The position numbers are program-made. Positions 28,994-31,900 of a stretch of DNA of 64,000 nt are shown here, one piece after another (position 1 is the first letter of the stretch; each line of letters begins with the position of its first letter). Origin of the DNA: Escherichia coli (GTDB lineage Bacteria > Pseudomonadota > Gammaproteobacteria > Enterobacterales > Enterobacteriaceae). The stretch lies in assembly GCF_003334355.1 (NCBI RefSeq), contig NZ_QOWP01000004.1. One strand, written 5' to 3'.

Positions 28994-31900
28994 TACAAAA
29001 ATCTGCAAATTCAATAAATTGCAATTCACCTTGTAGGCCTGATAAGCGCAGCGCATCAGGCAATTTGGCGTTGCCGTCAGTCTCAGTTAATCAGGTTAGG
29101 ACGATTAACCCTGCAGCAGAGACAGAACCTGCTGCGGTACCTGGTTAGCTTTTGCCAGCACGGAGTTACCTGCCTGCTGAATAATCTGCGCTTTCGACAT
29201 GTTGGACACTTCGGTCGCATAGTCGGCGTCCTGAATACGGGACTGCGCTTCGGACAGGTTGGTAGTGGTGTTGTTCAGGTTGGTGACTGCGGAATCCAGA
29301 CGGTTCTGGATAGCACCCAAGGATGAACGGAACTTGTCGATCTGGCTGATTGCGTCATCCAGAGCGGCCAGCGGATCGGTGGTGGTTGCGGCTTTGGTTG
29401 CAGCGTCGGTAGTGAAATCACCATCCGCTTCTACATAGACCGCTTTACCTGAACCGTTGGTTACAGAGCCATCTTTCTGCAGATACAGTTTAGTGGTGTT
29501 ATCAGTAGTCAGTGTACCGTCAGTGTTGGTGTAAGAATCTTTGTTGCCAGAAGTCGCAACATCATATGCCTGAACACTCCCATCAGTACCTACAGAGATA
29601 TAACCAGCTGTGTCTGCTGTACCAACAGTGAAACCAGTCGTTTTGCTTGCAGATTGCAGAGCAGCTGAACTAATTACAGCGCCTGTAACAGCAATCGTAC
29701 CTTCAGTACCATTGCTTGAACCATTCAGTACAATCGAAGTGTTATCAGCTGTAGTAATTGTGGATTTAACAGCCGCTGCACCATTATTGTTGTTCAGAGC
29801 TAAACCACTCAGAGTCGCTTCCGCGAGTGTTCCAACACCGTTATTACCACCATTCTGAGTTAAGTTACCAGTTGTATCAATGTAAAGCTTAGAGCCATCC
29901 TTAGCAGTGAGTTTGCCATCACTGGACAGCACGACGTCTTGTGTAGTACCACCAATTTCAACACTGAATGTTGCAGTGTCGCCCGCTTTCGGAGTCAGGT
30001 AAGACTGCAGCTCAGCTGTCGTAGCAGTCGTGTCATAAGTAAATGTATTATTATCTTTGTTAAGTTTATAGGCATTGGAAGTGGCTCCTGCAGCAAAGCC
30101 ATTTTTCACGCCTGTGGCTGTAATAGTCGTACCATCAGCGAGGCTAGACAGTACATCTGCGGCTGTAGTTTTAGTCAGCCCAGCACTTACTGTGTAAGCA
30201 ATGGCACCTGTAGAATCTGCTGCCCCAGGGGTACCAATTGCAGCAGCAGCCAAATCAGCTTTAGTCGCCGCAGTATTCGCCACAGAACCAGAACCATTCA
30301 CGTTAAAACCAGTCAGTTTCAACGTAGAAGAGTCAATCTTCTTCAGGTCGATAGTGATGGTCTGGCCATCATTCGCGCCAACCTGAATTTTCATCGAACC
30401 GTCTTTTGCCAGTACGTTCACGCCGTTGAACTGAGTCTGACCAGATACGCGGTCAATTTCGTCCAAACGGGATTTGATTTCGTCCTGGATAGAGTCCAGA
30501 TCAGACTGGGAGTTGGTACCGGTGGTCGCCTGAACGGTCAGTTCACGCACACGCTGTAAGTTGTTGTTGATTTCGGACAGCGCGCCTTCAGTGGTCTGTG
30601 CAACAGAAATACCGTCATTGGCGTTACGTGCAGCCTGAGTCAGGCCTTTAATGTTAGAAGTAAAACGGTTAGCAATCGCCTGACCCGCTGCGTCATCCTT
30701 CGCGCTGTTAATACGCAAGCCAGAAGACAGACGCTCGATAGAACTCGACAGCGCAGACTGGTTCTTGTTGATATTATTTTGAGTGATCAGCGAGAGGCTG
30801 TTGGTATTAATGACTTGTGCCATGATTCGTTATCCTATATTGCAAGTCGTTGATTACGTATTGGGTTTCCACCCGTCGGCTCAATCGCCGTCAACCCTGT
30901 TATCGTCTGTCGTAAAACAACCTTTAGAATTTTTTTCACAAACAGCCATTTTTTGTTAGTCACCGAAATACTCTTTTCTCTGCCCCTTATTCCCGCTATT
31001 AAAAAAAACAATTAAACGTAAACTTTGCGCAATTCAGGCCGATAACCCCGGTATTCGTTTTACGTGTCGAAAGATAAAAGGAAATCGCATGGCAAGTATT
31101 TCATCGCTGGGAGTCGGGTCAGGTCTGGATTTAAGTTCAATCCTTGATAGCCTCACCGCCGCGCAAAAAGCGACGCTAACCCCTATTTCAAATCAGCAAT
31201 CGTCGTTTACCGCTAAACTTAGCGCCTACGGTACGCTGAAAAGCGCGCTGACGACTTTCCAGACCGCCAATACTGCATTGTCTAAAGCCGATCTTTTTTC
31301 CGCCACCAGCACTACCAGCAGCACCACCGCGTTCAGTGCCACCACCGCGGGTAACGCCATCGCCGGGAAATACACCATCAGTGTCACCCATCTGGCGCAG
31401 GCGCAAACCCTGACCACGCGCACCACCAGAGACGATACGAAAACGGCGATCGCCACCAGCGACAGTAAACTCACCATTCAACAAGGCGGCGACAAAGATC
31501 CGATTACCATTGATATCAGCGCGGCTAACTCGTCGTTAAGCGGGATCCGTGATGCCATCAACAATGCAAAAGCAGGCGTAAGCGCAAGCATCATTAACGT
31601 GGGTAACGGTGAATATCGTCTGTCAGTCACATCAAATGACACCGGCCTTGATAATGCGATGACACTCTCGGTCAGCGGTGATGATGCGCTACAAAGTTTT
31701 ATGGGCTATGACGCCAGTGCCAGCAGCAACGGTATGGAAGTCTCGGTCGCCGCCCAGAATGCGCAGCTGACGGTCAACAACGTCGCCATTGAGAACAGCA
31801 GCAACACCATCAGCGACGCGCTGGAAAACATCACCCTGAACCTGAACGATGTCACCACGGGCAACCAGACGCTAACCATCACTCAGGACACCTCCAAAGC

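What the first reader, a model, noticed from the sequence alone, without database searches (positions are those of the whole stretch)
29105..30823. fliC allele with a long hypervariable central domain (non-K-12 H antigen)
The flagellin ORF is 572 aa, whereas K-12 FliC is 498 aa from memory. The N-terminal and C-terminal segments are the conserved flagellin D0/D1 regions, but the roughly 300-aa middle is a Thr/Ala/Gly/Ser/Asn-rich surface-exposed domain (…TYDTTATTAELQSYLTPKAGDTATFSVEIGGTTQDVVLSSDGKLTAKDGSKLYIDTTGNLTQNGGNNGVG…). This region determines the H serotype and is a known hotspot of recombination and immune selection. The H type cannot be assigned without a database.
Basis: partly seen in the sequence, partly recalled or inferred. 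Interest (0 to 1): 0.4.

Follow-up and report, generated by a model that had tools for sequence, protein, structure and literature searches.

The report
Ordinary H20-type E. coli flagellin gene
This is an intact, already catalogued E. coli flagellin gene (fliC) of the H20 antigen family, whose large surface-exposed middle belongs to the same "sheath-forming" outer-domain type as the H6 and H7 flagellins; it is ordinary natural variation, not a new feature.

Summary
Window 29105-30823 (minus strand) is a 572-aa fliC between fliA and fliD. Its ends are conserved. Its middle (aa 165-480) does not align with K-12 at all.

The H type can be assigned in silico and is H20. A protein identical at 570 of 572 residues comes from a record named E. 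coli O51:H20. A 97.6% identical gene sits in "E. coli H20 strain MIN6". The gene is 99.8-100% identical in 18 complete genomes, including ATCC 8739 (Crooks, O146). No other H type in 5,426 complete genomes exceeds about 73% DNA identity in the middle over most of its length.

The middle is not a stretched K-12 domain. It is 34% identical to the EPEC H6 outer domains (E 4e-24), and its predicted fold best matches the H7, H6, Azotobacter and Achromobacter sheath-type flagellins. It keeps the D4 dimer motif (N320/N324 = H7 N319/N323).

Within the H20 family the ends have dS 0.05-0.14 with dN 0. The middle has dS 0-0.02 with dN about 0.01, plus in-frame indels at short repeats. This is the classical signature of intragenic recombination.

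Already known; low interest.

The parts
29105..30823 (-). fliC coding sequence, 572 aa plus stop; H20-family flagellin
   Evidence: The ORF is listed. It is 100% identical to fliC of 4 complete E. coli genomes and 99.8-99.9% identical to 14 more, including ATCC 8739. It matches a protein from E. coli O51:H20 at 570/572 residues.
30332..30823 (-). N-terminal conserved part (aa 1-164; D0/D1, Flagellin_N; includes the LQRVRELTVQ segment at aa 89-98)
   Evidence: Pfam Flagellin_N covers aa 5-140. The segment aligns with K-12 from 30333 onward, with divergence rising to 9-12% next to the middle. It is 100% identical in protein across H20-family alleles but has dS 0.05-0.14.
29384..30331 (-). Central serotype-determining region (aa 165-480): outer domains of the H6/H7 sheath type
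   Evidence: It does not align with K-12. It is present at >=80% coverage in only 56 of 5426 complete genomes. It is 34% identical to the EPEC H6 outer domains, E 4e-24. The AF2 model has pLDDT 80-94 over most of aa 181-470, and its top Foldseek hits are 7SN4, 9N59, 7SN7 and 7SQD.
29852..29884 (-). Codons for aa 314-324, YIDTTGNLTQN: counterpart of the D4 dimer-interface motif of H7 (N319, N323) and H6
   Evidence: The phmmer alignments to 7SN4 and 7SN7 place window N320 and N324 on H7 N319 and N323. G319, N320, L321, T322 and N324 are invariant in 37 homologues from several genera. Mutagenesis of H7 N319/N323 is reported in PMC8931119.
29703..29713 (-). Site of a 15-bp in-frame deletion (GTGNA missing after aa 371) relative to other H20-family alleles, between two GGTACTG direct repeats
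   Evidence: This is shown by the DNA alignment and the protein alignment.
29786..29797 (-). AACAACAATAAT Asn-codon run carrying one extra Asn codon (aa 344) relative to other H20-family alleles
   Evidence: Seen in the alignments. The exact position of the extra codon within the run is ambiguous.
29105..29383 (-). C-terminal conserved part (aa 481-572; D1/D0, Flagellin_C) and stop codon
   Evidence: Pfam Flagellin_C covers aa 486-570. The segment aligns with K-12 up to 29383 with 4-6% divergence.
30900..30926 (-). Sigma-28 (FliA) class 3 promoter of fliC: TAAA-N15-GACGATAA
   Evidence: Read directly from the sequence. It matches 11 of 12 positions of the TAAA-N15-GCCGATAA consensus. The consensus and its assignment to fliC come from established knowledge of the E. 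coli flagellar regulon.
31019..31045 (+). Divergent sigma-28 consensus promoter upstream of fliD (TAAA-N15-GCCGATAA)
   Evidence: An exact pattern match: 2 in the window against 0.03 expected by chance. fliD starts at 31089.
28908..29098 (-). fliC 3' UTR with REP-like palindromes and an intrinsic terminator (28914-28930); counterpart of the K-12 3'UTR-derived sRNA FliX
   Evidence: It is 96.9% identical to K-12 b4827 FliX. The terminator-like hairpin CCCCGCC-ACC-GGCGGGG followed by a T run was found, and the sequence is shown.

Best explanation
The feature is the chromosomal fliC gene of a commensal-type, phylogroup-A-like E. coli closely related to strains ET896 and ATCC 8739. It encodes an intact flagellin of the H20 antigen family. 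The gene is transcribed from a FliA (sigma-28) class 3 promoter. The protein is exported through the flagellar type III apparatus and polymerised under the FliD cap. The conserved N- and C-terminal helices (aa 1-164 and 481-572) build the filament core D0/D1 and carry the TLR5-recognised segment. The middle 316 residues fold into three beta-rich outer domains of the H6/H7/H1 type that cover the filament surface and define the H antigen. Because the D4 dimer motif is kept, the outer domains most likely pair up into an outer-domain sheath like that solved for H7 and H6; this step is inferred, not shown. The allele differs from other H20-family alleles by about 8 amino-acid changes and two small in-frame indels, all within aa 294-429. 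The indels are at short direct repeats, consistent with replication slippage in surface loops. The H20 middle is evolutionarily young and has been moved between E. coli backgrounds by recombination with breakpoints inside or beyond the conserved ends.
For: Gene, frame and context (tcyJ-fliZ-fliA-fliC, divergent from fliD-fliS-fliT).

Identity to public genomes.

H20 assignment:
- P0018, from 'E. coli O51:H20', is identical at 570/572 residues.
- 'E. coli H20 strain MIN6' (taxid rank serotype) is 97.6% identical over the gene and 98.1% over the middle.
- ATCC 8739 is O146. A preprint lists ATCC 8739 among carriers of a defence island and separately lists O146:H20 among the carrier serotypes. 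This evidence is indirect.
- The next-nearest middles in complete genomes are 65% identical (strain 536 type), 72.5% over 66% of the length (H15) and 75% over 35% (H28).

Domains.

Outer-domain type:
- Full-length phmmer hits to 7SQJ/7SN7 (H6, E 1e-176) and 7SN4 (H7).
- The middle alone is 34% identical to H6, E 4e-24, and unrelated to the K-12 middle.
- The Foldseek top five hits are all sheath-type flagellins.
- The motif GNLT-N is invariant in 37 homologues.
- PMC8931119 states that sheath-type outer domains are 50-100 aa larger than K-12's. That accounts for the 74-aa difference.

Function: Crooks/ATCC 8739, whose FliC differs by one residue, was motile in a swarming assay (PMC3032704).

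Promoter and terminator.

Recombination. Indels.
Against: No H-antigen reference database or serology was available. The H20 label rests on organism names of two public records plus indirect literature. The window allele lacks 5 residues and gains one in a surface loop relative to the MIN6 and 576-aa alleles, so full cross-reaction with H20 antiserum is assumed, not shown. Sheath formation is inferred from homology: the middle is only 34% identical to H6, and global TM-scores are low (0.32-0.36) because the multi-domain monomer model is flexible and its D0/D1 helices have low pLDDT. Expression in the source strain was not tested.
Confidence: 0.9

Rival explanations
1. The 572-aa variant is an antigenically distinct subtype, or an unrecognised new H type, rather than H20 proper. 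The cause would be the loop indels (GTGNA deletion, extra Asn) and substitutions at aa 325-429.
For: All differences from the other H20-family alleles cluster in aa 294-429 of the surface domains and include two indels. The 572-aa form is a discrete group of 18 genomes at >=99% identity, separated by about 2-3% from the rest.
Against: A 570/572-identical protein carrying the same indels comes from a record named O51:H20. The middle is 97-98% identical to the other family members, far above the gap to any other type. Differences of this size are normally treated as within-type allelic variation; this last point is from general knowledge of H typing.
Confidence: 0.07
2. The gene is intact but silent or non-functional in its host (a non-motile strain). 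It would then be a genotype without an expressed H antigen.
For: Expression cannot be read from sequence. Many E. coli with intact fliC are non-motile in the laboratory (general knowledge).
Against: The ORF is uninterrupted. The sigma-28 promoter, fliA, fliZ, fliD/S/T, flhDC, motAB and fliE-R are all present and collinear with ATCC 8739. The Crooks strain, with a one-residue-different FliC, is motile. Purifying selection on the ends is complete: dN = 0 against dS up to 0.14.
Confidence: 0.03
3. The unusual length is an assembly or sequencing artefact, such as a collapsed or expanded repeat in a low-complexity region.
For: The middle is Thr/Ala/Gly/Asn-rich, and the indel sites lie at short repeats.
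Against: Identical sequence is found in 4 independent complete genomes from frog, human and pig, and 99.8-99.9% copies in 14 more. The exact protein is on 175 contigs. There are no long internal repeats: only three chance-level 14-15-nt pairs.
Confidence: 0

Closest known systems
E. coli fliC H20 alleles (for example in E. coli H20 strain MIN6, NZ_CP069692.1, 573 aa; the 576-aa form in strain S10 and many others; ATCC 8739 WP_000079747.1, 572 aa)
   Same: The locus, the D0/D1 protein sequence (100%) and the outer-domain sequence are the same. The middle is 94-100% identical in protein and 96-100% identical in DNA.
   Different: The window allele differs by one residue from ATCC 8739. Relative to the 573/576-aa forms it lacks GTGNA after aa 371, has an extra Asn at 344, and carries about 8 substitutions between aa 325 and 429. 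Its conserved ends differ synonymously by 5-14% from those alleles, which indicates different recombination histories.
Outer-domain-sheath flagellins solved by cryo-EM: EPEC O127:H6 (PDB 7SN7/7SQJ), EHEC O157:H7 (7SN4), Achromobacter (7SQD), Azotobacter vinelandii (9N59)
   Same: The alignment is full-length. There are three outer domains in place of the Salmonella/K-12-type D2-D3. The D4 dimer motif Y-x-D-x-x-G-N-L-T-x-N is conserved. These structures are the best Foldseek hits (PMC8931119).
   Different: The middle is only 34% identical to H6 and less to H7. The segment at aa ~330-440 aligns poorly, with many gaps. It is unknown whether H20 forms H7-like dimers or H6-like tetramers with a seam.
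E. coli K-12 FliC (H48, 498 aa; PDB 8CXM)
   Same: The locus and regulation are the same. D0/D1 is 87-100% identical per 40-residue bin. The 3' UTR/FliX region is 96.9% identical.
   Different: The middle is unrelated in sequence (E 0.51) and 74 aa shorter. [quoted passage not shown]
Flagellins of other Enterobacterales (Leclercia adecarboxylata, Pantoea, Kluyvera, Enterobacter hormaechei, Scandinavium)
   Same: They belong to the same outer-domain family. The middle is 54-65% identical, which is closer than E. coli H6 (34%).
   Different: They come from different genera, have different lengths (554-602 aa) and are not E. coli H types.

Membership tests
FliC/FljB flagellin (bacterial flagellar filament protein) | N-terminal and C-terminal helical flagellin domains (Pfam PF00669, PF00700) | tested here: met
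   Flagellin_N covers aa 5-140 (E 4.8e-46) and Flagellin_C covers aa 486-570 (E 1.1e-31).
FliC/FljB flagellin (bacterial flagellar filament protein) | Position in the E. coli fli region IIIa: between fliA and the divergent fliDST operon, with a sigma-28 promoter | tested here: met
   The ORF order is shown and the annotation of collinear genomes. TAAA-N15-GACGATAA lies at 30926-30900.
FliC/FljB flagellin (bacterial flagellar filament protein) | Assembles into a functional filament and supports motility | not testable with these tools
   Only indirect evidence is available: the Crooks strain, with a one-residue-different FliC, swarms (PMC3032704).
E. coli H20 antigen (fliC-H20) | High identity across the variable middle to fliC of strains typed H20, and clearly lower identity to every other H type | tested here: met
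   The protein matches one from E. coli O51:H20 at 570/572 residues. The middle is 98.1% identical to that of E. coli H20 strain MIN6. The next-best types are <=73% identical over most of the middle. No curated H-type database was available, so the labels come from the record submitters.
E. coli H20 antigen (fliC-H20) | Agglutination with H20-specific antiserum | not testable with these tools
   This is serology and cannot be assessed from sequence.
Outer-domain-sheath (ODS) flagellins (H1/H6/H7 type) | Outer domains homologous in sequence and fold to the H6/H7 D2-D3-D4 domains | tested here: met
   The middle against H6 gives E 4e-24 at 34% identity. The Foldseek top hits 7SN4, 9N59, 7SN7 and 7SQD have E 1e-24 to 1e-35.
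Outer-domain-sheath (ODS) flagellins (H1/H6/H7 type) | Conserved D4 dimer-interface motif with the two Asn residues (H7 N319, N323) | tested here: met
   Window N320 and N324 align to H7 N319 and N323. They are invariant in 37 homologues. The definition of the motif is taken from PMC8931119.
Outer-domain-sheath (ODS) flagellins (H1/H6/H7 type) | Outer domains alternate up/down and form symmetric dimers that sheath the filament | not testable with these tools
   This needs cryo-EM of H20 filaments. A monomer AF2 model cannot show it.

The most novel reading that the evidence does not exclude
H20-family filaments form an outer-domain sheath with a packing different from both H7 (dimers) and H6 (tetramers with a seam). 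The loop indels that distinguish the 572-, 573- and 576-aa alleles (all within aa 328-374, next to the D4 dimer motif) would tune that packing or create serologically separable H20 subtypes.
Probability: 0.15. Interest if true: 0.3.

Novelty: already known. Interest (0 to 1): 0.1.

Why it matters
It matters little beyond routine typing. The allele gives the source strain an in-silico H20 flagellar type and places it near ET896 and ATCC 8739 (O146). This is useful for identifying the strain but not new. The analysis does give a clean worked example of fliC mosaicism: a young, horizontally moving antigenic middle flanked by old, freely recombining conserved ends. It also flags H20 as one more E. 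coli H type predicted to build the sheath-type filament so far solved only for H6 and H7.

Tried and rejected
- Looking for a published H type of ATCC 8739: four papers give only 'O146' or 'ND' for the H antigen. A preprint lists O146:H20 but does not tie it explicitly to the strain, and its supplements are not held.
- Wang et al. 2003 (the fliC H-type survey, recalled from memory as PMC154406) is not held.
- The MS-H typing paper lists H types but no sequences.
- A search for 'O51 H20' found no paper.
- The 90% cluster look-up returned only the query itself.
- Internal duplication of the middle was rejected: only three 14-15-nt chance pairs were found.
- The antisense ORFs inside fliC (29939-30559 +, 206 aa; 29610-29858 +, 82 aa) were treated as by-products of the Thr/Ala/Gly codon bias. 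They lie wholly within fliC, and no evidence was sought beyond that.
- Rfam gathering-threshold scan: nothing in or next to fliC.
- The sigma-70 promoter scan gave fewer sites than the shuffles and is uninformative.
- A claim of positive selection was rejected. The dN/dS ratio of about 0.7-1.4 in the middle rests on too few changes to separate relaxed constraint from diversifying selection.

Full report
OBSERVATION

- It runs from 29105 to 30823 on the minus strand, ATG to stop, 572 aa, and contains the quoted peptide.
- Its neighbours are the canonical E. coli fli region IIIa. On the same strand downstream lie fliA (28066-28785), fliZ and tcyJ/fliY. On the other strand, divergently, lie fliD (31089-32495), fliS and fliT (annotation of collinear genomes).
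- K-12 MG1655 FliC is 498 aa.
- Pfam finds Flagellin_N at aa 5-140, Flagellin_C at 486-570 and the enterobacterial middle-domain family PF12445 at 343-476.

BOUNDARIES OF THE VARIABLE MIDDLE

- BLASTN of window 22000-36000 against the K-12 region gives two collinear blocks: 22996-29383 (98.15%) and 30333-34217 (97.97%).
- Window 29384-30332 (949 bp, aa ~165-480) has no counterpart in K-12, which has 727 bp there.
- Mismatches per 100 bp are 0-2 in the flanking genes. They rise to 9-12 in the last 300 bp of the 5' conserved part and to 4-6 in the 3' conserved part.
- The middle alone has no significant similarity to K-12 FliC (E 0.51).

IS IT REAL, AND HOW COMMON IS IT?

- The whole gene is 100% identical in four complete genomes: ET896 from a frog, PSS-12 and LR-27 from humans, and HCP6S3_I2 from a pig. 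It is 99.8-99.9% identical in fourteen more, including three ATCC 8739 assemblies and KCTC 2571.
- The exact protein is on record from 175 contigs. An assembly artefact is excluded.
- Some part of the gene (the ends) matches 4522 of 5426 complete genomes. The middle matches only 56 at >=80% coverage by megablast: 18 at >=99% and 38 at 96-98%. The family is therefore in about 1% of complete genomes.

H TYPE

No typing database was available, but three lines of evidence converge on H20.
1. Protein P0018 carries the same indels as the window allele, is identical at 570/572 residues, and is named by NCBI as from 'Escherichia coli O51:H20'.
2. 'Escherichia coli H20 strain MIN6' (taxid 2810409, rank serotype) carries a 573-aa allele that is 97.6% identical over the gene and 98.1% over the middle.
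3. ATCC 8739 is O146 with its H antigen 'not determined' in four papers. A 2025 preprint names ATCC 8739 as a carrier of a defence island and lists O146:H20 among the carrier serotypes. This is indirect.

With sensitive BLASTN the next-best middles in complete genomes are far away:
- 65% identity for the strain 536 type;
- 72.5% over 66% of the length for H15-labelled genomes;
- 75% over 35% for H28-labelled genomes.

The assignment is therefore not a close call between types. It remains an in-silico assignment resting on submitter labels.

VARIATION INSIDE THE H20 FAMILY

- The alleles are 561, 572, 573 and 576 aa long. Their D0/D1 protein sequences are identical, and most of their differences fall within aa 294-429. 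The exceptions are a 15-aa deletion at aa 223-237 in the 561-aa form, A207T in P0024 and E465G in P0018.
- Relative to the others, the window allele lacks GTGNA after residue 371. At the DNA level this is a 15-bp deletion between two GGTACTG direct repeats.
- MIN6 instead lacks 9 bp at the neighbouring GGTAC repeat.
- The window allele also has one extra Asn codon in an AAC/AAT run.
- These are typical slippage indels in surface loops.

RECOMBINATION TEST

Nei-Gojobori counts were made on five H20-family genes.

| Region | dS | dN |
|---|---|---|
| Conserved ends | 0.05-0.14 | 0 |
| Middle | 0-0.02 | about 0.006-0.016 |

- The dN/dS ratio in the middle is about 0.7-1.4, from 4-11 non-synonymous and 0-5 synonymous changes.
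- The middle is therefore much younger than the ends attached to it. That is the signature of an antigenic cassette moved between backgrounds, with breakpoints in or outside the conserved ends.
- The counts are too small to claim positive selection.
- At larger scale, the window and ATCC 8739 have no differences from about 26000 to 32000. They differ by 1.4-2.2% in blocks on either side (20500-23500, 25000, 32000-33900, 35500-36500).
- ET896 is essentially identical from 19000 to 35500. This is the usual E. coli recombination patchwork.

WHAT THE MIDDLE IS

- The best solved relatives are the EPEC O127:H6 flagellin (7SQJ/7SN7, E about 1e-176, aligned end to end) and EHEC O157:H7 (7SN4).
- The middle alone is 34% identical to H6 (E 4e-24).
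- An AlphaFold2 model built on 37 homologues has pLDDT 80-94 over most of aa 181-470, with dips into the 60s at aa 281-290, 321-330 and 341-350. As usual for a monomer, the D0/D1 helices have low confidence.
- The five best Foldseek hits in the PDB are H7, Azotobacter vinelandii, H6 and Achromobacter flagellins (E 8e-24 to 9e-35). All are of the outer-domain-sheath type. Global TM-scores are low (0.32-0.36), as expected for a flexible multi-domain chain.

Kreutzberger et al. 2022 (PMC8931119) report the following:
- These flagellins have three outer domains, D2-D4, unrelated to Salmonella/K-12 D2-D3.
- The domains alternate up and down and dimerise into a sheath.
- A conserved D4 interface containing H7 N319 and N323 is needed for normal motility.
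- Such outer domains are 50-100 residues larger than those of K-12.

In the phmmer alignments, window N320 and N324 fall on H7 N319 and N323, within YIDTTGNLTQN. The H7 counterpart is YVDDAGNLTTN and the H6 counterpart is YMDATGNLTKN. G319, N320, L321, T322 and N324 are invariant in 37 homologues from Escherichia, Leclercia, Pantoea, Kluyvera, Enterobacter and others.

Sheath formation by H20 is an inference.

The same outer-domain family crosses genus boundaries. The middle of a Leclercia adecarboxylata flagellin is 65% identical, closer than E. coli H6.

EXPRESSION SIGNALS

- The fliC sigma-28 promoter TAAA-N15-GACGATAA lies at 30926-30900 on the minus strand.
- A perfect TAAA-N15-GCCGATAA lies at 31019-31045 (+) ahead of fliD.
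- The 3' UTR (28908-29098, minus) is 96.9% identical to the K-12 sRNA FliX and ends in a GC-rich hairpin followed by a T run at 28930-28914.
- The Crooks strain, whose FliC differs by one residue, was motile in a swarming assay (PMC3032704).

COMPARISON WITH WHAT IS KNOWN, AND VERDICT

- The feature is a member of the FliC/FljB family: domains, locus and promoter were tested and met.
- It belongs to the H20 allele family: tested indirectly and met; serology is not testable here.
- It belongs to the H6/H7 sheath-type structural class by homology and motif; the assembly itself is not testable here.
- Identical or near-identical sequences are already in public genomes, and H20 is a long-established H type.
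- Nothing in the sequence, on either strand, points beyond ordinary fliC polymorphism.
- Novelty: already known. Interest: 0.1.

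Noticed in passing
window 28908-29098 (minus strand): The fliC 3' UTR is 96.9% identical to the K-12 3'UTR-derived sRNA FliX (b4827), including its terminator at 28914-28930. The sRNA is therefore conserved although the coding middle of fliC is replaced. Rfam 15 has no family that hits it.
   Followed up: partly
window 1-64000: The whole window is collinear with E. coli ATCC 8739 (NC_010468.1, about 1879682-1943684, opposite orientation) at 99.5-99.8% identity and has no large indels. It carries tar-cheWA-motBA-flhCD, otsBA, araFGH, uvrYC, sdiA, fliAZ, fliC, fliDST, fliE-R, rcsA, dcm-vsr and hprS.
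   Followed up: yes
window 19000-42000: Divergence from ATCC 8739 is patchy. There are no differences from about 26000 to 32000 around fliC, but blocks of 1.4-2.2% on both sides. Strain ET896 is essentially identical over 19000-35500 and then diverges. This is typical recombination mosaicism.
   Followed up: partly
window 37782-38917 (minus strand) and about 39100-39250: The DUF5503 gene between yedK and fliE is broken into 267-aa and 63-aa ORFs. It is annotated as frameshifted in ATCC 8739 and ET896 but is intact in strain OkiPb01695. An integrase remnant lies beside it. This spot is the most divergent in the region among the compared genomes.
   Followed up: partly
window 60651-61754 (+), next to rseX at 60280-60369: There is an intact porin ORF (367 aa from the first ATG; annotated 'porin' in ATCC 8739) at the position where, from memory, K-12 has the yedS pseudogene.
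   Followed up: no
window 494-520 (minus strand) and 510-587 (+): A second perfect sigma-28 consensus, TAAA-N15-GCCGATAA, lies just upstream of tar. It overlaps the Rfam C0465 RNA match on the other strand.
   Followed up: no
window 18814-19113; locus L004 24255-25719: ET896 and MIN6 carry a hypothetical gene plus a site-specific integrase directly after the tRNA Gly-Cys-Leu cluster. The window and ATCC 8739 have yecA there, so an island present in the closest fliC-identical genome is absent here.
   Followed up: partly
window 29939-30559 (+) and 29610-29858 (+): Long antisense ORFs (206 and 82 aa) lie wholly inside fliC. They are most likely a by-product of the Thr/Ala/Gly-rich codon usage and were not tested further.
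   Followed up: no
locus L005 9895-10304 (E. coli H20 strain MIN6): fliS, the flagellin export chaperone, is annotated as frameshifted in MIN6. That H20-labelled strain may therefore be poorly flagellated despite an intact fliC.
   Followed up: no
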